Source of the DNA: a virus
IMG/VR virus record: IMGVR_UViG_3300044953_000352
Location: 1 to 64,000 of that record
DNA: 64,000 nt
Strand: one strand, 5' to 3'
Shown here piece by piece: positions 1 through 50,831 of this stretch; within the stretch, counting starts at the first letter, position 1; the number at the start of each line of letters is the position of its first letter. The notes beneath the pieces were generated by a model that made no database searches, was not told the DNA's origin, and worked only from the letters and a program-made list of their open reading frames with translations. A program made the position numbers and the translations under genes.

Positions 1-780
1 ACCAGCAGATGAATAATCTTTTCTTTTTTGTATCATCCATCCTTGATTTTCACGATTTTGCATAAAATGAGGTAAATTTTTAGTATAAACTTCAATTACT
101 TTTTTTTGACCATTTACTTTAAAATCGGGATTAAATCTTTTTCCATCTGGTGTGTTTATCCAAAACTTATAATCTCCTACGTATCTTAAATCTAGATTTT
201 TATTTAAAAATTTATTAATAAACTTTTTTTCTAATAAAGTTGGTCTTTTCCACTGAGTTTTTTTCATTCCCTCTTGCCAGTTTTTAACATACTCTGGGGT
301 TTTCCACATCTTTTTACAAGAAATACTTGTTTTAAGATTAGAAATTTCAGGGTTTTTTCTTTTGTATCCTTTTTGATTCTGAGGCAATTCTTTTTGTTTC
401 ATCAAACCAAGATTATTTCTTTTTGAAATTTGTTTTGAATTAATATATTTTAACCATTGTTGTTTTCCAACATTATTAATTGAACGAAGTTCTCGTTCCG
501 TCATTTCCAATACTTCCATTCCAATTTCAAAATTTTCTGTTACTAATGGTCTATTATCTGCTCCCCACCAAACGTGATCTTTAGTGCAAATTATTTTTTT
601 CCTTAATCCAAAATCTAATACACACAAATCATTGGAGGACACTTCTTTTTTAATAATATTTTTAATAGTGTTTTTAACTACAGAGCTTCCATTCCATGTC
701 CAAATTTCATCACCTATTTTTAGATTTTTAATGGATGTATATCCGATTGGAGTAGCAATTGGACTATTACCACCTAAACA
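1..780 (-). mobile_element. Intein in IscU with Vsr/DUF559-like PD-(D/E)XK endonuclease (C-terminal part outside window)
   Basis: After FKTFG the frame reads CLGGNSPIATPIGYTSIKNLKIGDEIWTWNG (block A), IICTKDHVWW (block B TxxH), then RPTLLEKKF...RFNPDFKVNGQKKVIEVY. Confidence 0.85.
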
Positions 781-975
781 TCCAAAAGTTTTAAACCTAG
801 CATCAGTTACAGTACCAGTAACATCGTCAATTTTGAGACTGATTTTCATGATATCACCACAAACAGCTGCTCCTACTTCACCAACGGCATCTGCATCTTT
901 AATATCACCCATGTTACGTGGATTTAAAAAATGATCCATAACTGTTTCGTTGTATAATGTATAAGAATCGCTCAT
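1..975 (-). CDS. iscU: IscU/NifU-N Fe-S scaffold protein containing an intein (runs off left edge; not in ORF track)
   Basis: Manual translation from ATG at 975: MSDSYTLYNETVMDHFLNPRNMGDIKDADAVGEVGAAVCGDIMKISLKIDD...ARFKTFG|C. HFxNPRN, CGD and FKTFGC are IscU motifs; frame open to position 1. Confidence 0.9.
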   Translation of the reverse strand, partial: MSDSYTLYNETVMDHFLNPRNMGDIKDADAVGEVGAAVCGDIMKISLKIDDVTGTVTDARFKTFGCLGGNSPIATPIGYTSIKNLKIGDEIWTWNGSSVVKNTIKNIIKKEVSSNDLCVLDFGLRKKIICTKDHVWWGADNRPLVTENFEIGMEVLEMTERELRSINNVGKQQWLKYINSKQISKRNNLGLMKQKELPQNQKGYKRKNPEISNLKTSISCKKMWKTPEYVKNWQEGMKKTQWKRPTLLEKKFINKFLNKNLDLRYVGDYKFWINTPDGKRFNPDFKVNGQKKVIEVYTKNLPHFMQNRENQGWMIQKRKDYSSAG

Positions 976-3027: not shown

Positions 3028-3816
3028 TTAAAATCTTGATTTCAACGGACATTTTGCTCCTTGTAAAATATCTGGATCCATGTTAAAATGAATAGTTCCT
3101 TTTTTAAGATAGCCTCTTCCACAATTAAATGTACAGTTATAACAATATATTTTTATATTTTCTAACCTATGATTATGTTTATCTCCATCTTCAAAATTAA
3201 GTAATAAAGGAATTTTGCCATCAGTAATTCTTCTTTCATGATATCCACATTGTTCACATTCTGCTTTTTTAATACCAGATCTAATTAACTTATCTTTTAA
3301 TCTGTGTATTGGAAAATTAGGATGTTTGCCTTCTAATATATCTGTAATAGGATATTTTCCTTTATAAGGATTAAATGGGCATATATTTGGTCTTTTTGCA
3401 GTGCGGTCATACTTCTTAAAAATATTATAAAGTTTACAATATTTTTTGTATGTTGGATAACTAACCCCCAATCTTTTTGCTGCTTGTCTTGCACTTGCAG
3501 TAACTTTTTGTACTTCTAAAATTTCGGATTCTAATAAAGGTTTCGCTGATAGTCCAACAAGTCCTCGTTTTTTAAAAATAATATCATCTGCTTTTTTCTG
3601 TAAAAAAGGAATAGTAATATCTTGTTGTTTAAGTGCTTCAACTTCTGCCACTATTTCTTTATTTACTTCATCTGCAATTTCAGAGCCAATTACAGTTAAA
3701 TCTTTTATATCTTTTACTTCACGTTTTAATAAATCTAATTCTTTAGATTTTGCTTCTAATTCTTTTAGTCTCAACAGAATTGCATCTATATCATGATTAT
3801 TTGGAGTATCGCTCAT
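3028..3816 (-). CDS. HTH plus degenerate HNH/Zn-finger protein
   Basis: SARQAAKRLGVSYPTYKKY (HTH); CEQCG...LLLNFEDGDKHNHRLENIKIYCYNC (HNH-like, usual His replaced). Confidence 0.65.
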   Translation of the reverse strand: MSDTPNNHDIDAILLRLKELEAKSKELDLLKREVKDIKDLTVIGSEIADEVNKEIVAEVEALKQQDITIPFLQKKADDIIFKKRGLVGLSAKPLLESEILEVQKVTASARQAAKRLGVSYPTYKKYCKLYNIFKKYDRTAKRPNICPFNPYKGKYPITDILEGKHPNFPIHRLKDKLIRSGIKKAECEQCGYHERRITDGKIPLLLNFEDGDKHNHRLENIKIYCYNCTFNCGRGYLKKGTIHFNMDPDILQGAKCPLKSRF

Positions 3817-4139
3817 ACATTTTTCAAAGGCTCAGTTGCCCAGTCTATGTTATTATTTTTAATAAAATGCTCTCTTACTATTTCTGCATATTTATGCATT
3901 CCTGCGTTTATTAAAATTTTATATGCATTGAACGTATGCATATTTTTATACAAATCTTTAGGCAAAGAACTATTATATAAACAACAGTTTATTACAGATG
4001 CCACTCGCAATTGTTTTTCTTTCACCAAGCTTTCAATAGCTTGTGTGCATGCTTCTGTGTATATATCTTCAAAGATTTTATTATCAATCTTTACTATTTT
4101 TGTCCAATTTCCACTACTAACTATTACTGTTTTTATCAT
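3813..4139 (-). CDS. hypothetical protein
   Basis: ATGA overlap with the downstream gene; likely start MIKTV at 4139. Confidence 0.6.
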   Translation of the reverse strand: MIKTVIVSSGNWTKIVKIDNKIFEDIYTEACTQAIESLVKEKQLRVASVINCCLYNSSLPKDLYKNMHTFNAYKILINAGMHKYAEIVREHFIKNNNIDWATEPLKNV

Positions 4140-6747
4140 AATTAAGATCTCCGTCATTCAATAAGTCTAAGTTTGTCAATTTTTTATTTACATTTTCACA
4201 AACTTTTTCTTCGACTGTATTTGCTACAAATACTATTTTTTGTATACTTTTTGTTTTTGAACTATCTCTCCAAACACGTCCTGTTGATTGTCTCATATTT
4301 ACAGGAGAATATGAAGGTGAAATTATAGCTAATCTTGGATGTTTTCCGTTTATATCATGCAAAGAAATTCCAGCACCACCAGCCGCTATATTAATTAATA
4401 TAACTCTTTCTTTATCATCTTGGAAATCATCAATACTCTGCCGTCTTGTTTTTTTATATTTTGCTTCTCCATTAACAATACATTGTGTATTTAATCTTTC
4501 AGAAAGTGCATGTAATGTTTCGGTGAAGTTAACAAATACTGCTACACTCATACCATTTTCAATTCCTTCTTCTATCATTTCAACAAACAAAGGAACTTTT
4601 ATTAATTCGATTTCTTGTCTGGCACGAAGAATTGCAGTTAATTCAGAGGTTTTTTCTTTTTTAATTTTTTTTCTTAACTTTTCCAATTCTTTATTCATTT
4701 CACTGTAAACCGAATTTATCTTTTTTTGAACTTTTTCTTCCATATCATAGCATTCTGCTATAATTTGACTTTCTGGAAAGTTTGGAATTGTATCTCTACT
4801 TAATCTAACACCTCTATCTATAAAAATATCTTTATGCAATTTTTTTAAAATATCATTATTTCCTTTAAATTCTAATCCAAATCTACCTTTTACAACACCG
4901 TGTTCATATAACCATTTATAGTATTGTTTATTATTACTAAATAATCCAAGACACATACCGACTGTTCTTAGTTCAAGTGGATTAGTAGCATTTGTAGCAC
5001 TACAAAATATCATTCTATAACCTTGTTTTAATGCAGCTAAACAAGTTTCACTGTTTTTTGTAGTTGCTCCTTTTAATTTTTGACTTTCATCCCATATAAT
5101 AACTGTATTTTTAGGCAATTTCCATACAAATTCTTTTCTTCTCGTATCTCTTCGTTTTACGTATGAAGCATATGGATTATCAGTCCTACCTACTCTCAAC
5201 GATTCATAATTTATAATACCTATTAATTTATCTTGTATTTTAAAATGGTTACATATTACTCTTCTCCATGATTCCATGACTGCAATAGGACAAACAATAA
5301 ACATTTTGGCATTTAATTCTCTTATTGTACCACATGCATTATATGTTTTACCTGTATTATGAGTAACAGTAAAATCTCCAAGTAAAAATCTACCATCACC
5401 ATTCAAACAAAATCCATAAAAATCATCGACTTGTAAAATTTCAGTCGAAAATCCAGTTACCAACACATTTTTCTTTTGTTTTCTCGTAGATGATTTTTTT
5501 CTGTCAAGTCGTGTCGGAATTATAGAACAATCTCCGCTAATAGATACTTTATAATATTCACCTGTCACTCCGTTATTAAAACATGTTTTTTTAACTTTTT
5601 TTATATACGCTGCGAGTCCTAATGATTTTGAAATAAATTCTACATCTTGAGCTAAATTATATGATTTTACTGTAAAATCATATCCCCCATTTCTATAAAA
5701 TCCGTCAGAATCCAAAAGCCCTGCTAATATTTCTAATCTTTGATTTTTATCACATATTTTATATTCATGAGGAATGTATCTATTTTCAGATTTTATATGC
5801 AATAGATTTACTTTTCGTAAATATTTATATAAATTAGGAGCATTTGTTATTCTTTTCGTAATCTTTTCTGAAGTGTACCCTAATTTCCAATCATTTTTAA
5901 TAACTTCTTCGTTAACTGCATTCCAACAAATATTATCAGTTGATGTAAAAGTCACACAATTAGATGAAAGTCCACCATCTCCAAGTATAAGACCAATGAA
6001 ATAAGGGGAAAACGGTTGAATAGATGTCTTCCAACAATTTACACCCATACGGAATAATTTCATATGCTTTTTGACAGATGAAGATAATTTCAAATAATCA
6101 GACACCTTTATATCATATATTTGATTTGATTTAAATCCACCGATTGATTTTTTTGTTTTATGTAAATTAGTAATTTTTACAGTTAAAACGTGGTTTATAT
6201 TAACAACAAATGGATATCCTTTTATTGGAGATATTTTAACCATTGTTTCTTTTCCAGAACATAATGATAATACTTTTTGTGGTCCATTCCATCCCATTAT
6301 ATAATCACCAATTTTTATGTTTTCTACCAATTTTACAGTTCCATCATACATTAATATCGGTTGTCCTTTAGCATGACATCCGACATCACTTCCATCAATA
6401 GCACATCCCCATGTATCTATTGCAGCAACTAATTTACCAACAGCCGAAACTTGCCAAGGTCGCAAGCCTTCTGTGTGTTTAACTTCTTTTGGTACTAATT
6501 CTTTAACTTTTTCAATTTTATTTTCTACTTGAGGTGCATCAAATAATTCTTTTTTTGGCTGTTTTTCAATTACGTACCATTTATTCTCTTTCTTGATAAC
6601 TCCATAACCATCAATTTTTAGTTTGAAACTATTTTTCTTCCAATAGTCAAAAAATTGAGAGCAAATTTCAAATGGAATTAACCATTCTCTTTGCCATCCG
6701 TCTGCCACTTTATATGGAGTGCCCCAATCAAGATTTAAAACGCCCAT
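4117..6747 (-). CDS. SF2 (SNF2-like) helicase with intein
   Basis: LRPWQ Q-motif; Walker A SDVG|TGKT split by intein; WDESQ; SAT; AGGAGISLH; QSTGRVWR. Confidence 0.9.
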   Translation of the reverse strand: MGVLNLDWGTPYKVADGWQREWLIPFEICSQFFDYWKKNSFKLKIDGYGVIKKENKWYVIEKQPKKELFDAPQVENKIEKVKELVPKEVKHTEGLRPWQVSAVGKLVAAIDTWGCAIDGSDVGCHAKGQPILMYDGTVKLVENIKIGDYIMGWNGPQKVLSLCSGKETMVKISPIKGYPFVVNINHVLTVKITNLHKTKKSIGGFKSNQIYDIKVSDYLKLSSSVKKHMKLFRMGVNCWKTSIQPFSPYFIGLILGDGGLSSNCVTFTSTDNICWNAVNEEVIKNDWKLGYTSEKITKRITNAPNLYKYLRKVNLLHIKSENRYIPHEYKICDKNQRLEILAGLLDSDGFYRNGGYDFTVKSYNLAQDVEFISKSLGLAAYIKKVKKTCFNNGVTGEYYKVSISGDCSIIPTRLDRKKSSTRKQKKNVLVTGFSTEILQVDDFYGFCLNGDGRFLLGDFTVTHNTGKTYNACGTIRELNAKMFIVCPIAVMESWRRVICNHFKIQDKLIGIINYESLRVGRTDNPYASYVKRRDTRRKEFVWKLPKNTVIIWDESQKLKGATTKNSETCLAALKQGYRMIFCSATNATNPLELRTVGMCLGLFSNNKQYYKWLYEHGVVKGRFGLEFKGNNDILKKLHKDIFIDRGVRLSRDTIPNFPESQIIAECYDMEEKVQKKINSVYSEMNKELEKLRKKIKKEKTSELTAILRARQEIELIKVPLFVEMIEEGIENGMSVAVFVNFTETLHALSERLNTQCIVNGEAKYKKTRRQSIDDFQDDKERVILINIAAGGAGISLHDINGKHPRLAIISPSYSPVNMRQSTGRVWRDSSKTKSIQKIVFVANTVEEKVCENVNKKLTNLDLLNDGDLNYDKNSNS
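5356..6378 (-). mobile_element. 341 aa intein with LAGLIDADG homing endonuclease
   Basis: Starts CHAKGQPILMYDG, contains IGLILGDGG and ILAGLLDSDG, ends FTVTHN followed by +1 Thr. Confidence 0.95.
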
Positions 6748-24117: not shown

Positions 24118-24654
24118 TTACCTATATTCTGGCTTAAGTAGACGCCATCTATCACTATCAATTTCTTTTTCTCCAGAGTTTATTTTTTTTAACATATTAA
24201 GTACATCTTCTTTTGAAGAATAAATATAATTGTGTGGAATAGTCCAAAATACCCAAAATGGTGTAAGTTTTTTACCTCCTTCTGTTATAAAAAAAATAGG
24301 GCGTTTACTTCTATTTGCTAAAAAAAATTCTTCCCATGAACCAACTGTAACTATATTTGGTATAAAATGAAAAATAATAAAGTCTGATTTTTCAATTAAT
24401 GCCAAATCAAAAGAACGTATAGATTTTAAATTGGAAATTTTATCGTATTGTTCATTTTCTGCCCACTCTTTTAATTTACACGTAACTTGTTCCGATTCAT
24501 TTAATTTTTGATTATCAAACGGTTTATTATAATGATTAAAAATTGTTACATTTAATGTAGATAGTTCATTTTTAAAAAAATCTCGTATATTTCTTCCGTT
24601 TGCATATTGCATTGGACCAATTACAGTACATTTAGTTTTATTTAGTAGATTCAT
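24118..24654 (-). CDS. nucleoside 2-deoxyribosyltransferase-like protein
   Basis: IGPMQY, RSFDLALIEKSDFII, VGSWEEFFLANRSKRPIF. Confidence 0.6.
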   Translation of the reverse strand: MNLLNKTKCTVIGPMQYANGRNIRDFFKNELSTLNVTIFNHYNKPFDNQKLNESEQVTCKLKEWAENEQYDKISNLKSIRSFDLALIEKSDFIIFHFIPNIVTVGSWEEFFLANRSKRPIFFITEGGKKLTPFWVFWTIPHNYIYSSKEDVLNMLKKINSGEKEIDSDRWRLLKPEYR

Positions 24655-25363
24655 ATGTTTTAATTATAAGTTTTGCATAATATACTAACTCGTCTAAAGA
24701 GAAATCTTGTTTAATATTGTTAACGTCTTTGTGTACCCATTGTACGTTACCTATTATATAACCCTTTGAAGAATCAATTCTATCAATAGATGCCGTTTGT
24801 TTATTATTTTTATTTGAGATTAACGATATATCCAACCCAGACAATGCACATTTTTTATTTTGTTTTAAATATAAGTCCCACAAATATTCTTTTGTTACTA
24901 AGTATTCAATTTTACGCTTCATTGCATTATATTTTATAGAAGATAAATATCTACCTTGTAAATCACCAATACCTTTATAATTAAAAGAATGTGGGTATAA
25001 ATCTCTCGCTTTTTTTAGATTGTTATAACTTGTTTGTACATGAAGACATCCGCATGATTTTATTTTAGCACTTATCAAATCTGATCCACGGGCTTCTGTC
25101 ACATTACCACATTCACATAAACATTCCCACATTGTTTTTTTATTATTATCACAGCGTGTAAACTTTTTTACAATTAATCTACCGTATATGTTTCCTATTA
25201 AATTAATTTTTCCTTTTTTTATTAAAATTTGATTTAATTTTAATATTTTTAATACCGATTTAATATTAATTTTATATTTTTCTGAGATATTTTTACTTGT
25301 TAATTGATTAATTGTATACTCTTTGATAATTTGTTTTTGTAATTGTTTTAGTCTATTTGTCAT
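24638..25363 (-). CDS. free-standing HNH homing endonuclease
   Basis: YGRLIV...WECLCECGN...KSCGC; KCALSG; ASIDRIDSSKGYIIGNVQWVHKDVNNIK. Confidence 0.85.
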   Translation of the reverse strand: MTNRLKQLQKQIIKEYTINQLTSKNISEKYKINIKSVLKILKLNQILIKKGKINLIGNIYGRLIVKKFTRCDNNKKTMWECLCECGNVTEARGSDLISAKIKSCGCLHVQTSYNNLKKARDLYPHSFNYKGIGDLQGRYLSSIKYNAMKRKIEYLVTKEYLWDLYLKQNKKCALSGLDISLISNKNNKQTASIDRIDSSKGYIIGNVQWVHKDVNNIKQDFSLDELVYYAKLIIKTYESTK

Positions 25364-37921: not shown

Positions 37922-38874
37922 AATTATTATATATTACAGGATGCTTGGGTTTTATCGGATCTCATTTGACTCGTGCGTGTCTTAAAAAAGGATGGTATGT
38001 AAGAGGAGTAGATAAGGCAACATATGCTGCGGATTTAAATTTATTAAACGAATTTAATCAATATCCTACATTTAGTTTTAAGAGGGGAGATATTTGTAAA
38101 TTAGATCGTTTAGTAGATTGTGATTATTTTATTAATGTTGCCGCCGAAACTCATGTTGATAATTCTATTAGAAAAAGTGATGACTTTGTTTATTCTAATA
38201 TTAATGGCGTTTATAATATCCTAGAATTATTGAAAAATTATAATAAACAAGGATATGTAAAGCCAGTTTTATTACATTTTAGTACAGATGAAGTGTATGG
38301 AGATATAGAAGATGGTCAGCATTTTGAAACGGATATATTGAAACCAAGTAATCCTTATTCAGCAACAAAAGCATCAGCGGATCAATTAATTCTTGCATGG
38401 GCACGAACATATGGTATACAATACGTTATTGTTAGACCAACTAATAATTATGGAATAGGACAATATGTTGAAAAATTAATTCCAAAGACTTGTAAATATA
38501 TAAGTTTAAACAGAAAAGTGCCTCTTCACAATAATGGAACTCCAATACGTAATTGGCTTCATGTAGAAGATACTGCTAGAGGAATTATAACAATAATTGA
38601 ATCGGGTGTTAAAAACGAAATATTTAACATAGCAGGTGGATTTGAACAATCAAATATAGTAACTCTTCAGAAAATAGTAAAAGAATATTTTGGTAATTTA
38701 CCTGATGATTACGAAAACAAATATATTGATTTTTCTTTAACAAGAGTTGGTCAAGACATTCGATATGCATTAAATGATGACAAATTGAGAAGTCTAGGAT
38801 GGAAGCCTCAATGTGATTTTGATGTCGAATTAAAAAAGATAGTGAAGTATTATAAGGATAATTTTATATGGTAA
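37918..38874 (+). CDS. rmlB: dTDP-glucose 4,6-dehydratase
   Basis: GCLGFIGS, AAETHVDNSI, STDEVYG, PSNPYSATK, NNYG..QYVEKLIP. Confidence 0.88.
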   Translation: MKLLYITGCLGFIGSHLTRACLKKGWYVRGVDKATYAADLNLLNEFNQYPTFSFKRGDICKLDRLVDCDYFINVAAETHVDNSIRKSDDFVYSNINGVYNILELLKNYNKQGYVKPVLLHFSTDEVYGDIEDGQHFETDILKPSNPYSATKASADQLILAWARTYGIQYVIVRPTNNYGIGQYVEKLIPKTCKYISLNRKVPLHNNGTPIRNWLHVEDTARGIITIIESGVKNEIFNIAGGFEQSNIVTLQKIVKEYFGNLPDDYENKYIDFSLTRVGQDIRYALNDDKLRSLGWKPQCDFDVELKKIVKYYKDNFIW

Positions 38875-40661
38875 AATATGATAATTCAAATTATTTGGCA
38901 GCAGACTTGATAGCAGATTTTCTCGAAGAGAAAGAAATTGATATAGCATTTGGTATTATAGGATCTGCCAACTCATATATTTTTGATTCTATATCTAGAA
39001 AAGGATATACTAAATTAATATGCATGCATCATGAACAAGCAGTTGTAATGGCAGCAGGTGCATATTATAGAACTACTGGAAAATTATGTGCTGCTATTGT
39101 AACCGCTGGAGCAGGTGCTTCTAATGCAATAACAGGAGTATTATGCAATTGGGCAGATTCTATACCTTGTATTGTAATATCAGGACAAGAATCAACTAAA
39201 TATGTCAATGAGCATTCTAACCTTAGAATGTTAGGTACGCAAGGATTTGATGTATCAAAAATGGTATCTGATATTGTAAAATTTAGTACAATTATTAAGA
39301 ATAAATCTGATATTTTACAATCATTAGAACAAGCATATTATATAGCATTAGAAGGAAGACCGGGACCAGTATGGATTGATATTCCAATGGATATGCAATC
39401 TGCAATACTTAATAAAGAAGATTTAAATAAATTTACCGTTCCAAATCAAGTTGTATCTGAATATGATTTACATGAGATAATAAAGTTAATCGAACAATCA
39501 GATAGACCATTAATTTTAGGAGGACACGGAGTACGTCTTTCTAAATGTCAGGATAAATTTAAGAGCTTAATAGAAAAATTAAAAATTCCCACTGTTTTAT
39601 CGTGGTCTGGAATTGATAATTTATCATTTGATAATCCATACAACTTTGGTTGTCCGGGTTTATATGGACAACGATGTGCTAATTTTATAATTCAAAATTG
39701 TGATTTATTAATTGTATTAGGAAGCAGACTTGCGTTACCACAAACTGGTTATAATATAAATAATTTTGCACCAAATGCAAAAATAATAATGGTAAATAAC
39801 GATGAAAATGAATTAAAAAAGCACAATAGATATGATATAAAAATCAAAGATGATTGTAAGAATTTTATAAATAAATTATTAGCTTACGACATAAATTCAT
39901 ATAAATCCAAGTGGTATGATCGTTGTTTGCAGTACAAAAATGAGTTTCCTTTAGTTGAAAAATCTCATTGGGTAGACAATAAAAATCATGATAATTCTTA
40001 TGTATTTATCAATGAACTATCAAAACTTCTAAAAGAAGATCATATTATTGTTATAGGACAAGGTACACCATTACCATGTTCACATCAAAGTCTTGAACTC
40101 AAATCAAAACAAATAGCATTTGCATCAAATGGTTTAGGAGAAATGGGAAATGGATTACCATCTGCTATCGGAGCAGCATTTGGTCGTAATAATAGAGAGG
40201 TTATCTTAATGGATGGTGACGGTAGTATGATGATGAACTTGCAAGAGTTACAAACTATTGTAAGTTATAATCTTCCTGTAAAAATAATAATCTTTAATAA
40301 TGAAGGTTATTTGTTTATAAAACACACACAAAAAATGTTATTTAATGGTCGATATACTGCGGTCAATAAAGAAACCGGCATGAGTTTACCTGAATTTAAA
40401 AAAATAGCATACGCATTTGATATACCTTATTTTAATACAAAACATAATACTGTGGAAGAATTTTTAAGTCATGATGGATATGCTATATTTGAATGTTATA
40501 TGAATCCAGAACAAGAATTCGCTCCAAAAGTAAAAGGTATTTTAACAAAGAATGGTATTTTACCACCACCAATTGAGGATATGTCGCCTTTATTACCGAT
40601 AGAAATTTTAGAAAAAAATATGTTGAAAGTAAATGAAACGTCATATAAAATCAGACAATGA
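38868..40661 (+). CDS. TPP-dependent acetolactate-synthase-like enzyme (YerE-like)
   Basis: HHEQAVVMAA, EGRPGPVWIDIP, MGNGLP, DGDGSMMMNLQEL...NNEGY; sugar-cluster context. Confidence 0.85.
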   Translation: MVKYDNSNYLAADLIADFLEEKEIDIAFGIIGSANSYIFDSISRKGYTKLICMHHEQAVVMAAGAYYRTTGKLCAAIVTAGAGASNAITGVLCNWADSIPCIVISGQESTKYVNEHSNLRMLGTQGFDVSKMVSDIVKFSTIIKNKSDILQSLEQAYYIALEGRPGPVWIDIPMDMQSAILNKEDLNKFTVPNQVVSEYDLHEIIKLIEQSDRPLILGGHGVRLSKCQDKFKSLIEKLKIPTVLSWSGIDNLSFDNPYNFGCPGLYGQRCANFIIQNCDLLIVLGSRLALPQTGYNINNFAPNAKIIMVNNDENELKKHNRYDIKIKDDCKNFINKLLAYDINSYKSKWYDRCLQYKNEFPLVEKSHWVDNKNHDNSYVFINELSKLLKEDHIIVIGQGTPLPCSHQSLELKSKQIAFASNGLGEMGNGLPSAIGAAFGRNNREVILMDGDGSMMMNLQELQTIVSYNLPVKIIIFNNEGYLFIKHTQKMLFNGRYTAVNKETGMSLPEFKKIAYAFDIPYFNTKHNTVEEFLSHDGYAIFECYMNPEQEFAPKVKGILTKNGILPPPIEDMSPLLPIEILEKNMLKVNETSYKIRQ

Positions 40662-49292: not shown

Positions 49293-50831
49293 ATGGATGT
49301 ATTATTTATAAATCCCGGAAACGCACGAGTAATTTATCAAAACTTAGAAAAAGATTATTCTGCTATTGAACCTCCTACTTGGGCACTTTTATTAGCCGAA
49401 TCTTGTCGATCCATAGGAAAAACTGTTAGTATTTTAGATATAAACGCTGAAAGACTCTCTGTCGAACAATCATATGAAAGAATTGTAAATATAAATCCTA
49501 AATTAATATGTTTTGTTGTATATGGACAAAATGTTAATGCTGGTACTACAAATATGAGTGGTGCAGTTGAGTTATCCAAGTATATAAAATTGCATAATAA
49601 AAATATACCAATCGCGTTTATAGGATCATATGTACAAGCTCTTCCTAAGAAGACATTGTTTGATGAAAAATCAATAGATATTGTATTTACTAACGAAGGT
49701 GTTTATGCATTAAGAAATTTACTTTCTCAAGACAAAATTGACTTAAATAACTTAGACCATATTAAAGGTATTGGATGGAGAAAAAATGGGTTTCCTACTT
49801 TAAATCCTCCAGAATTTGTAGTGCCGCAAGATAGATTAGACACCGATTTACCGGGATATGCATGGGACTTATTACCATATAAAGAAACACCATTGGATTT
49901 ATATCGTTCTCCAATGTGGCATGCTGAATATGATCCTAAAAAACGTACTCCATATGCTGCTATACAGACTTCATTAGGATGTAAATTCGGCTGTGATTTT
50001 TGTATGATAAACATACTAAATAGAAATGATAATGAAGAAATCGGAGTAGCATCAAATTACAGTTTAATGAGATATTGGTCTCCTGAATTCATTATAAGAG
50101 AATTTGATAAATTAGTAAAAATGGAAGTTGAAACTATTCGTATTATCGATGAATTGTTTTTACTTAACAAAAAACATTATGTTCCATTGTGTGAAATGCT
50201 AAAAGAAAGAGGTTATGGTAAATTCTTAAGAATGTGGGCATATTCACGTATTGATACTGTATGTAATCCAGAACTTCTTAAGTTAGTAAGAGAAGCGGGT
50301 ATTAAATGGTTGTGTTTAGGAATAGAAAGTGGAGACAGAAACATACGTTTAGAAGTCTCAAAAGGCAAGTTTCAAGATGTTGATATTAAAAAGATAGTAG
50401 AGCAAATTCATGCGAATGATATTGAGATAATGGGAAATTATATATTTGGGTTGCCGGGAGATAGTATTGATAGTATGCAAACAACTCTAAATCTATCAAA
50501 AGAATTATGTACATCTGGATGGAATGCATATACAGCAATGGCATTGCCGGGAAGCAAATTGTATAAAGATGCTATAGACAAAGGACTCAATATTCCCAAA
50601 AAATATGAAGAGTTTTCATTTCATTCATATGAAACACTTCCATTGCCTACAGAACATTTAACTCCTGCTGAAATTGTAAAATTTAGAGATAATGCATTTG
50701 ATGAATATCATTCAAATTCTTTATTTCTGGAAAGAATAGAAAAAAGATTTGGAGAAGTAGCGGTAAACTCTATAAGAAAAATGTTAAAATTTAAATTAAA
50801 ACGCAAGATTGTTGAGGAATCAAATAAATAA
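49293..50831 (+). CDS. B12-binding radical SAM enzyme
   Basis: N-terminal cobalamin-binding domain (EPPTWALLLA, LDINAE); TSLGCKFGCDFC; LGIESG; YIFGLPGD. Confidence 0.9.
   Translation: MDVLFINPGNARVIYQNLEKDYSAIEPPTWALLLAESCRSIGKTVSILDINAERLSVEQSYERIVNINPKLICFVVYGQNVNAGTTNMSGAVELSKYIKLHNKNIPIAFIGSYVQALPKKTLFDEKSIDIVFTNEGVYALRNLLSQDKIDLNNLDHIKGIGWRKNGFPTLNPPEFVVPQDRLDTDLPGYAWDLLPYKETPLDLYRSPMWHAEYDPKKRTPYAAIQTSLGCKFGCDFCMINILNRNDNEEIGVASNYSLMRYWSPEFIIREFDKLVKMEVETIRIIDELFLLNKKHYVPLCEMLKERGYGKFLRMWAYSRIDTVCNPELLKLVREAGIKWLCLGIESGDRNIRLEVSKGKFQDVDIKKIVEQIHANDIEIMGNYIFGLPGDSIDSMQTTLNLSKELCTSGWNAYTAMALPGSKLYKDAIDKGLNIPKKYEEFSFHSYETLPLPTEHLTPAEIVKFRDNAFDEYHSNSLFLERIEKRFGEVAVNSIRKMLKFKLKRKIVEESNK

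What the first reader, a model, noticed from the sequence alone, without database searches (positions are those of the whole stretch)
1..975. Phage IscU with an endonuclease-bearing intein at an Fe-S-ligating cysteine
Seen: IscU N-extein ending FKTFG, then intein blocks A and B and a Vsr/DUF559-like nuclease rather than LAGLIDADG. Known: the Cys of FKTFGC is a cluster ligand in IscU, and the mycobacterial SufB intein splices in a redox/metal-sensitive way. Inferred: the +1 residue is that ligand Cys, so the scaffold works only after splicing and could act as a redox- or metal-gated switch on Fe-S assembly. I do not know this as a described intein site.
Basis: partly seen in the sequence, partly recalled or inferred. 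Interest (0 to 1): 0.8.

Follow-up and report, generated by a model that had tools for sequence, protein, structure and literature searches.

The report
Mobile intein splitting a phage IscU
A large freshwater phage's iron-sulfur scaffold gene (iscU) is interrupted, just before a cluster-binding cysteine, by a self-splicing intein that is still spreading and carries an unusual Vsr-like nuclease; I found no paper describing it, it behaves like a selfish element, and no regulatory switch is shown.

Summary
Window 1-975 (-) encodes 65 residues of IscU ending in FKTFG, followed by 260 residues of a class-1 intein. The gene is cut by the end of the contig, so there is no "left window".

More than 30 full-length relatives complete the picture. 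They have a 333-aa intein ending in SHN, followed by CGSAIA. The +1 Cys is the Cys63 cluster ligand.

The central domain folds like the I-Bth0305I/Vsr nucleases (Z 11.2). It is in frame and lacks that family's conserved His.

The intein is mobile. Intein-free alleles are intermixed on the extein tree and co-occur with it in one lake metagenome. Against another phage, the intein is 95% identical in DNA while the exteins are 73-75% identical. dN/dS is 0.03-0.28 in all intein parts.

Sister phages carry a second intein (HNH type) before Cys37, and some carry both. The same intein sits in the isc operon of Candidatus Achromatium palustre.

The redox or metal switch idea is untested, and nothing here requires it.

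I found no paper on IscU inteins. This scan has already noted them on other DNA (16 notes), including the two-intein phage allele.

The parts
781..975 (-). IscU N-extein, residues 1-65. The start ATG is at 973-975. It contains the first ligand Cys39 and Asp41 (CGD at 853-861) and ends in FKTFG (781-795).
   Evidence: Pfam NifU_N E 1.8e-21. Maps to E. coli IscU residues 1-63. Coordinates.
505..780 (-). N-terminal lobe of the intein splicing (Hint) domain, intein residues 1-92. Cys1 is at 778-780. Block B TKDH is at 574-585, preceded by a conserved Cys (586-588).
   Evidence: Alignments A1 and A2. The profile matches the gp41-1 intein 6riz at E 1.9e-6. Foldseek hits inteins and BIL domains. The Cys next to block B is present in 26 of 27 sequences.
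250..504 (-). Helical, basic region between the Hint lobe and the nuclease. It is the putative DNA-binding part, with NUMOD-like repeats (NSKxISxRN at 415-441; KTSISCKKMWK at 301-333) and an invariant LPQNQKGY (364-387).
   Evidence: Helices in the AF2 domain model. Weak NUMOD3 hit (E 0.041) in one member. Weak matches to PHROG 'homing endonuclease' families 655 and 314. dN/dS 0.06-0.28.
1..249 (-). First 83 residues of the in-frame Vsr-like (PD-(D/E)xK-fold) homing endonuclease core, cut by the contig end. It holds RPTLLE (229-246), PDF (121-129), KKVIEVYTK (79-105) and FMQNR (52-66). Relatives have about 20 more nuclease residues, the C-terminal Hint lobe (...SHN) and the 68-aa C-extein.
   Evidence: Domain model of relative L083: best VIA-align match I-Bth0305I 3r3p Z 11.2, then 3hrl Z 9.4 and Vsr 1cw0 Z 8.7. 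Invariant residues. dN/dS 0.03-0.15.

Best explanation
This is a phage auxiliary iscU gene parasitised by an active, mobile class-1 intein.

The gene is translated as a precursor of about 466 aa. In the window only the first 325 aa are present, because the contig ends.

Inferred splicing: the Hint domain (Cys1, block-B TxxH, terminal His-Asn) excises itself and joins Gly62 to the +1 Cys, recreating the FKTFG-CGSAIA loop. That +1 Cys is the Cys63 [2Fe-2S] ligand. Only the spliced IscU of about 133 aa should therefore be able to build clusters.

Inferred homing: the in-frame central module has a helical NUMOD-like DNA-binding part and a Vsr-fold nuclease. It cuts intein-free iscU alleles of co-infecting relatives at the conserved FKTFGCGSAIA codons. 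Recombinational repair then copies the intein in, with co-conversion of the flanks.

The site is a ligand Cys because inteins need a Cys, Ser or Thr at +1 and homing nucleases persist best on invariant DNA. Regulation is not needed to explain it.

Shown here: the anatomy, conservation of all splicing residues in relatives, the fold of the nuclease, purifying selection, the presence/absence polymorphism and recent horizontal transfer.

Inferred: splicing itself, DNA cleavage and its target, and inactivity of the precursor.
For: Anatomy and junctions. Mapping to the Cys63 ligand.

Hint fold and nuclease fold.

hhalign aligns the PDF..GQKKVVEV motif of the intein nuclease with VDF..GKKLAIEV of I-Bth0305I.

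Purifying selection: dN/dS is 0.03-0.28 in Hint-N, the DNA-binding part, the nuclease and Hint-C.

Horizontal transfer:
- Window versus viral contig G001: exteins 73-75% nt identity with saturated dS, intein 95% (dS 0.15), nuclease part 98.8% (dS 0.02).
- L083 versus L084: N-extein 79.5% nt identity, but nuclease, Hint-C and C-extein 99-100%, which looks like a co-conversion tract.

Polymorphism:
- Intein-free alleles at up to 95% N-extein aa identity. One of them, L010, is syntenic, with a GMD gene upstream that is 78% identical.
- Extein tree: two deep clades, each mixing intein-bearing and intein-free alleles. Parsimony gives 20-21 changes, and at least 3 are forced by well-supported branches.
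- In lake-water run X3, one contig spans the N-extein/intein junction. Another continues from FKTFG straight into letters that read CGSAIAAS.

Other hosts and sites:
- The same intein lies in iscS-iscU-iscA of Candidatus Achromatium palustre.
- An HNH intein sits before the Cys37-equivalent, and double-intein alleles exist.
- A LAGLIDADG intein occupies the same site b in another IscU lineage.
Against: - The window's own copy is truncated, so its block F/G, terminal Asn and +1 Cys are not seen. They are inferred from relatives that are 77-90% identical.
- There is no experimental evidence of splicing or of DNA cleavage.
- The nuclease lacks a conserved counterpart of the general-base His of Vsr and I-Bth0305I. 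Its activity rests on the conserved Glu, Asp, Glu and Lys and on low dN/dS.
- Long-term retention under purifying selection is also what an adaptive (regulatory) intein would show.
- The run data are contigs, so depths and absences are weak evidence.
Confidence: 0.85

Rival explanations
1. Conditional-splicing switch. The intein has been co-opted so that oxidation or metal binding at Cys1, the +1 Cys, or both blocks splicing. Release of a working Fe-S scaffold would then be gated by the redox or metal state of the infected cell.
For: - Cys1 and the +1 Cys are both cysteines, and the +1 is a cluster ligand.
- A further Cys directly before the block-B Thr is conserved in 26 of 27 sequences.
- Some phages carry inteins at two of the three ligand cysteines.
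- The M. tuberculosis SufB intein is reported as a sensor of oxidative and nitrosative stress (Topilina et al. 2015, as cited in PMC4760082).
Against: - Most sampled alleles lack the intein: 121 of 164. Intein-free alleles co-occur with it.
- The nuclease is under purifying selection, and the intein has moved recently between diverged alleles. Selfish homing therefore suffices.
- Unrelated inteins use the same and other ligand sites.
- Nothing measured here bears on splicing conditions.
Confidence: 0.1
2. Decaying or domesticated insertion. The nuclease, the splicing activity or both are dead, and the gene is a pseudogene or a non-splicing fusion.
For: - The window copy is incomplete.
- The nuclease has no Pfam match and lacks the family's His.
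- One relative (L006) appears to have a frame break near the C-extein.
Against: - There are no stops in 325 codons.
- All splicing residues and the nuclease's acidic and Lys residues are invariant across sequences of 42-90% identity.
- dN/dS is well below 1 in every part.
- The intein is 95-99% identical in DNA across diverged hosts.
Confidence: 0.04
3. Assembly artefact. The IscU-intein junction is a chimeric join at a contig end.
For: The feature sits at the very end of the contig. In run X1 the intein part lies on a separate contig from the flank.
Against: The same junction occurs in more than 30 independent assemblies. Several are internal to contigs of 74-200 kb (L004, G001) and one is in a GenBank genome. 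A contig in run X3 spans the junction.
Confidence: 0.01

Closest known systems
Mycobacterium tuberculosis SufB (Pps1) intein
   Same: A class-1 intein with Cys1 and Cys+1 in an Fe-S cluster assembly protein. Splicing is needed for function. It is the reference case for redox-sensitive splicing (cited in PMC4760082; see also PMC8891592).
   Different: A different host protein (SUF system versus the ISC scaffold), a different nuclease type, and a cellular host. In IscU the +1 residue is itself a cluster ligand. No homology beyond the Hint fold was tested.
I-Bth0305I and the 'EDxHD' Vsr-like homing endonucleases (Taylor et al. 2011, PMC3239194; PDB 3r3p)
   Same: It is the best structural match to the nuclease core (Z 11.2, rmsd 2.9 A, 92 of 98 residues). 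The (P/V)DF...GxKKx(I/V)EV motif is shared. The DNA-binding region lies N-terminal to the nuclease, and the element is phage-borne.
   Different: I-Bth0305I is a free-standing ORF inside a group I intron, whereas here the domain is fused in frame inside an intein. The general-base His is not conserved here, and an invariant Lys (EVYTK) is present instead. There is no HMM-level match.
Fractured-gene split inteins with Vsr-like endonuclease genes, e.g. gp41-1 (Dassa et al. 2009, PMC2677866)
   Same: They come from T4-like aquatic phages. The Hint domain here is closest in sequence to the gp41-1 intein, and the nuclease family is the same.
   Different: There the intein is split and the nuclease is a separate gene between the halves. 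Here everything is one reading frame. This matches step 'IIIa' of that paper's model (nuclease fused in frame, contiguous gene recreated), which the paper proposes as a step of its model.
Actinobacteriophage inteins with anti-sense VSR-like HENs (bioRxiv 10.1101/2025.01.02.630785)
   Same: Contiguous phage inteins associated with a Vsr/EDxHD-like nuclease, with a patchy distribution that suggests horizontal transfer.
   Different: Their nuclease is encoded on the opposite strand, and the host proteins differ (polymerase, capsid, terminase). That paper says the VSR-like HEN was otherwise reported only with split inteins.
IscU site-a HNH intein of sister phages (L143, L144, P0032, G001)
   Same: The same phage IscU lineage and the same logic (+1 is a ligand Cys, here the Cys37-equivalent). 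It co-resides with the site-b intein in alleles of 812-818 aa.
   Different: A different site, a different Hint sequence, and an HNH_3 nuclease. It is absent from the window's allele, which reads GAAVCGD uninterrupted.

Membership tests
Class-1 intein (Hint splicing domain) | Nucleophilic Cys/Ser at intein position 1, directly after the N-extein | tested here: met
   Cys at window 778-780 follows FKTFG. It is invariant in 27 of 27 sequences.
Class-1 intein (Hint splicing domain) | Block B TxxH | tested here: met
   TKDH at window 574-585. The His is invariant; the Thr is replaced in one relative, P0027.
Class-1 intein (Hint splicing domain) | C-terminal His-Asn followed by a Cys/Ser/Thr at +1 | tested here: inconclusive
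   This part is missing from the window copy because the contig ends. It is present as SHN|C in all complete relatives, including those 77-90% identical.
Class-1 intein (Hint splicing domain) | Hint fold | tested here: met
   AF2 model of relative P0002: Foldseek hits to gp41-1, DnaB inteins and BIL domains at E 1e-5 to 1e-4. Profile hit to 6riz at E 1.9e-6.
Class-1 intein (Hint splicing domain) | Precise in-frame insertion, with intein-free alleles that restore the host motif | tested here: met
   L010, L011 and many others read FKTFGCGSAIA uninterrupted.
Class-1 intein (Hint splicing domain) | Protein splicing demonstrated | not testable with these tools
   Needs expression of a full-length allele.
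EDxHD / Vsr-like homing endonucleases | Vsr-like restriction-endonuclease fold of the catalytic domain | tested here: met
   3r3p Z 11.2, 3hrl Z 9.4 and 1cw0 Z 8.7. The next unrelated rows are at Z 8.6 or lower. Foldseek gives the same top three.
EDxHD / Vsr-like homing endonucleases | Conserved metal-binding Asp and the extra conserved acidic residue (Glu in IEV) | tested here: met
   PDF and (I/V/L)EV are invariant. They align to VDF and IEV of I-Bth0305I.
EDxHD / Vsr-like homing endonucleases | Conserved His acting as general base | tested here: not met
   The His of the I-Bth0305I VYWH motif has no conserved counterpart. The nearest position reads LP[H/K/S/E]F across relatives. An invariant Lys (EVYTK) may take the role, but that is inference.
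EDxHD / Vsr-like homing endonucleases | N-terminal NUMOD-type DNA-binding repeats | tested here: inconclusive
   The region is helical and basic with two similar repeats. The only Pfam support is a NUMOD3 hit at E 0.041 in one member.
Pfam DUF559 (PF04480) / Vsr (PF03852) | Match to the family HMM | tested here: not met
   Neither family matched at E <= 1 in any of 17 members scanned.
LAGLIDADG homing endonucleases | LAGLIDADG motifs or an HMM match in the central domain | tested here: not met
   No LAGLIDADG family among the Pfam hits for this intein. The neighbouring SNF2 intein does match LAGLIDADG_3.
IscU / NifU_N Fe-S scaffold | NifU_N domain with the three Cys ligands, plus the Asp and His | tested here: met
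   NifU_N E 1.8e-21 for the window. Cys39 and Asp41 are in the window. The +1 Cys and the His-Cys (KIHCS) are invariant in complete relatives. The exteins align end to end with E. coli, human and Aquifex IscU.

The most novel reading that the evidence does not exclude
The IscU inteins could be more than parasites. The +1 nucleophile is a [2Fe-2S] ligand, and a further conserved Cys sits next to the block-B Thr near Cys1. Splicing might therefore be blocked by oxidation or by metal or cluster binding in the precursor. The phage would then release active scaffold only under suitable redox or iron conditions, and alleles with inteins at both Cys37 and Cys63 would carry a double lock. Separately, this would be the first contiguous intein with an in-frame Vsr-like (EDxHD-related) nuclease, the fused state proposed as step IIIa of the 2009 fractured-gene model.
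Probability: 0.1. Interest if true: 0.8.

Novelty: new variant of a known kind. Interest (0 to 1): 0.45.

Why it matters
- **New intein host.** It adds IscU, the central ISC scaffold, to the proteins that host inteins. At least two insertion sites lie exactly at cluster-ligand cysteines, and at least three nuclease types are involved.
- **Active spread.** One of these inteins is shown to be moving now among large freshwater phages, and it also sits in a bacterial isc operon.
- **Architecture.** The intein has a Vsr-like nuclease fused in frame. The papers I could search describe this nuclease only as a separate gene in split inteins, or on the opposite strand.
- **Test system.** The precursor is small (about 466 aa), and its splicing nucleophile doubles as a metal ligand. 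That makes it a clean system for asking whether natural inteins respond to redox state or metals.
- **Annotation and assembly.** These genes are called as oversized 'NifU-like' proteins, and the shared intein breaks metagenomic assemblies, as it did here.

Tried and rejected
I obtained genomic context through the search for related loci and the genome search instead.
- Searching the rest of the contig for a C-extein found only the N-extein.
- Foldseek with the whole 470-aa model returned only Hint and IscU hits. A domain-only model was needed to identify the nuclease.
- Pfam gave no family for the nuclease. The PHROG hits to 'homing endonuclease' families were weak.
- An HMM search of phage 0305phi8-36 with the nuclease alignment found nothing. 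The link to I-Bth0305I rests on fold and a weak hhalign alignment.
- L174, a long match in a Clostridium MAG, is two tandem iscU genes and not an intein.
- No cultured phage in INPHARED carries this intein.
- No RNA holder was listed among the sequencing runs, so nothing can be said about expression.
- In run X4 the joint 536/830 with 519 other letters is ambiguous (20-nt side) and was not interpreted. The X1 contig depths (143 for the intein contig, 17.5 for the flank) are per-contig figures and serve only as a hint that the intein is shared among genomes.
- Literature searches for IscU or NifU inteins and for Achromatium inteins found nothing relevant. The supplementary files of the Novikova survey are not held.
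- No model coordinates were available, so Cys-Cys distances and catalytic-residue superpositions could not be measured.

Full report
**What is in the window.** A single open frame starts at the ATG at 975-973 on the minus strand and runs off the left end of the window, 325 codons with no stop. Residues 8-66 match Pfam NifU_N (E 1.8e-21), and weak Hint matches begin at residue 65. The window begins at base 1 of a 79,239-bp IMG/VR viral contig with 20% CheckV completeness. The gene is therefore cut by the contig end, no "left window" exists, and no C-extein lies elsewhere on the contig.

The contig is a large T4-like phage. Its family-B polymerase is 45% identical to that of Microcystis phage Mel-JY01 and about 31% identical to those of cyanomyoviruses and pelagiphage HTVC008M. 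It also has a gp44-type clamp loader, an exonuclease and free-standing HNH endonucleases. G+C content is 24-33%. The sequencing runs that hold the stretch are mostly lake-water metagenomes.

**Completing the gene from relatives.** A protein search found 27 clusters of 420-478 aa that cover the whole fragment (E down to 8e-199, 42-90% identity). In alignment, all complete ones read FKTFG | C-L-x-x-N ... TxxH ... SHN | CGSAIA(A/S)SS. Full-length DNA loci from lake metagenomes (L083-L086) give a 466-aa precursor made of a 65-aa N-extein, a 333-aa intein and a 68-aa C-extein.

A profile of the family matches E. coli IscU as two stretches, residues 1-63 and 63-127. The intein-free allele aligns without gaps in that region to Aquifex IscU 2z7e, so the Cys of FKTFGC is Cys63. 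That Cys37 (Cys36 in Aquifex), Cys63 and Cys106 (Cys107 in Aquifex) bind the cluster is established knowledge of IscU, not tested here.

For the window's own copy it remains an inference, because its C-terminus is missing.

**The nuclease.** Pfam gives no family for the central 190 residues, and PHROGs gives only weak 'homing endonuclease' hits. An AlphaFold model of this module from L083 has mean pLDDT 80, with the core at about 75-95. It was compared with about 48,000 PDB representatives:

| Match | Z | Detail |
|---|---|---|
| I-Bth0305I catalytic domain (3r3p) | 11.2 | rmsd 2.9 A, 92 of 98 residues |
| Endonuclease-like protein NGO0050 (3hrl) | 9.4 | |
| E. coli Vsr (1cw0) | 8.7 | |

These figures are, and Foldseek ranks the same three first. 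hhalign aligns PDF..GQKKVVEV of the intein nuclease with VDF..GKKLAIEV of I-Bth0305I.

The invariant residues are a Glu in the first helix (RPTxxE), the Asp of PDF, the Glu and Lys of EVYTK, and FMQ(N/D)R. The general-base His that defines Vsr and the 'EDxHD' family (PMC3239194, PMC3384342) has no conserved counterpart. "Vsr-like" is therefore right for the fold, but full membership of EDxHD or of Pfam DUF559/Vsr is not met.

The region upstream of the nuclease is helical and basic with two NUMOD-like repeats. This echoes the family's architecture of an N-terminal DNA-binding region and a C-terminal nuclease, but the evidence is weak.

**Is it alive and moving?** Pairwise dN/dS is 0.03-0.28 in every part of the intein, nuclease included. 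The intein is much less diverged than its host gene.

- Window versus viral contig G001: the exteins are 73-75% identical in DNA with saturated synonymous sites. The intein is 95% identical (dS 0.15), and its nuclease part is 98.8% identical (dS 0.02).
- L083 versus L084: 79.5% in the N-extein, but 99-100% from the nuclease through the C-extein, as expected of a co-conversion tract.

Intein-free alleles are the majority of those sampled, 121 of 164. They reach 95% N-extein amino-acid identity to the window. One of them (L010) has the same upstream GDP-mannose dehydratase gene, 78% identical.

On an extein tree the family falls into two deep clades. Each mixes intein-bearing and intein-free alleles, with 20-21 parsimony changes, of which at least 3 are forced by well-supported branches.

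In lake run X3 one contig spans the N-extein/intein junction. Another runs from FKTFG straight into codons that read C-G-S-A-I-A-A-S, so both allele types co-occur. In run X1 the exact flank contig stops about 30 nt inside the intein, and a 95%-identical intein lies on a separate contig. This fits a shared element breaking the assembly and would explain why the window's contig ends inside the intein (contig-level data, so only a hint).

**Wider picture.**
- Sister phages carry a different intein, with an HNH nuclease, directly before the Cys37-equivalent (GAAA|CF...VVKN|CGDIMK).
- Alleles of 812-818 aa carry both inteins (P0124; G001 locus L244).
- Among the representatives of 185,579 prokaryote species, the best 80 matches kept from the scan included one carrier of the site-b intein. 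This is Candidatus Achromatium palustre, where it sits in iscS-iscU-iscA.
- An unrelated LAGLIDADG intein occupies the same site b in another IscU lineage.

Ligand-Cys codons of IscU are thus recurrent landing sites for several independent inteins. The simplest reason is that these codons are invariant and supply the required +1 nucleophile.

**Comparison with what is known.** The closest functional analogue is the M. tuberculosis SufB intein, reported to sense oxidative and nitrosative stress (cited in PMC4760082).

Vsr-like nucleases were described as separate genes between split-intein halves in aquatic T4-like phages (PMC2677866). That paper's model proposes a step (IIIa) in which the nuclease becomes fused in frame and the gene becomes contiguous again. 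A 2025 preprint states that the VSR-like nuclease had otherwise been reported only with split inteins, and adds anti-sense copies in full inteins.

An in-frame Vsr-like nuclease in a contiguous intein, whose Hint domain is closest in sequence to the gp41-1 split intein, therefore looks like that proposed state. I found no paper on IscU or NifU inteins, though the searchable library is incomplete.

Earlier notes of this scan record IscU/NifU inteins in at least 15 other genomes, including the two-intein phage allele. They likewise found no publication.

**The switch idea.** Nothing computed here tests it. Points in its favour are Cys1 and Cys+1, a conserved extra Cys before block B (26 of 27), and the double-intein alleles. 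Against it are the dominance and co-occurrence of intein-free alleles, the selection on the nuclease, the recent transfer, and the use of these sites by unrelated inteins. I put it at about 10%.

**Verdict.** This is an ordinary kind of element (a mobile class-1 intein) in an apparently unpublished host gene and site, with an apparently unreported nuclease architecture. Interest is moderate.

Noticed in passing
window 4117-6747 (-): An 876-aa SNF2-type helicase carries a second intein of a different kind: Hom_end_hint E 1.1e-15 and LAGLIDADG_3 E 1.5e-5, between the SNF2 and Helicase_C parts.
   Followed up: no
window 3028-3816 (-) and 24638-25363 (-): Two free-standing HNH endonuclease genes (PHROG hits E 1.9e-13 and 6.5e-24). 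The first lies about 2 kb from the iscU intein. The genome is rich in homing-type nucleases.
   Followed up: no
window 49293-50831 (+) and 38868-40661 (+): A B12-binding radical SAM enzyme and a TPP enzyme sit in the long sugar-synthesis run. The radical SAM enzyme is a likely Fe-S client of the phage IscU.
   Followed up: no
L244:1498-3936 (-) (IMG/VR contig G001); P0124; P0143: IscU alleles of 812-818 aa carry both inteins, one before the Cys37-equivalent (HNH) and one before Cys63 (Vsr-like). The mature protein is about 130 aa.
   Followed up: partly
L163:4980-6380 (+) (LFCU01000252.1, Candidatus Achromatium palustre): The same site-b intein with the same nuclease (51% identity) lies in a bacterial iscS-iscU-iscA operon.
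   Followed up: partly
P0235 (504 aa): A different IscU lineage has a LAGLIDADG intein at exactly the same site (FKTFG|CLPANEE...AVHN|CGAAIS).
   Followed up: partly
L083 versus L084: The alleles are mosaic. The N-extein is 79.5% identical in DNA, but the nuclease, Hint-C and C-extein are 99-100% identical, which looks like a homing co-conversion tract.
   Followed up: partly
window 586-588 (-), Cys130 of the precursor: A Cys directly before the block-B Thr (C-T-K-D-H) is conserved in 26 of 27 intein sequences. Its role is unknown, and its distance to Cys1 could not be measured.
   Followed up: no
P0142 (523 aa, named ISU1 of Symbiodinium microadriaticum): This was the best 'longer' hit of the intein-free phage IscU (E 3.3e-85, 55% identity, 92% coverage) and is far longer than an IscU. 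I did not check whether it has an insertion or is a repeat or fusion.
   Followed up: no
L006:4209-5591: The intein-bearing iscU of this viral contig ends early, 412 aa against a tblastn match that runs further. This suggests a frameshift or an assembly error near the C-extein.
   Followed up: no
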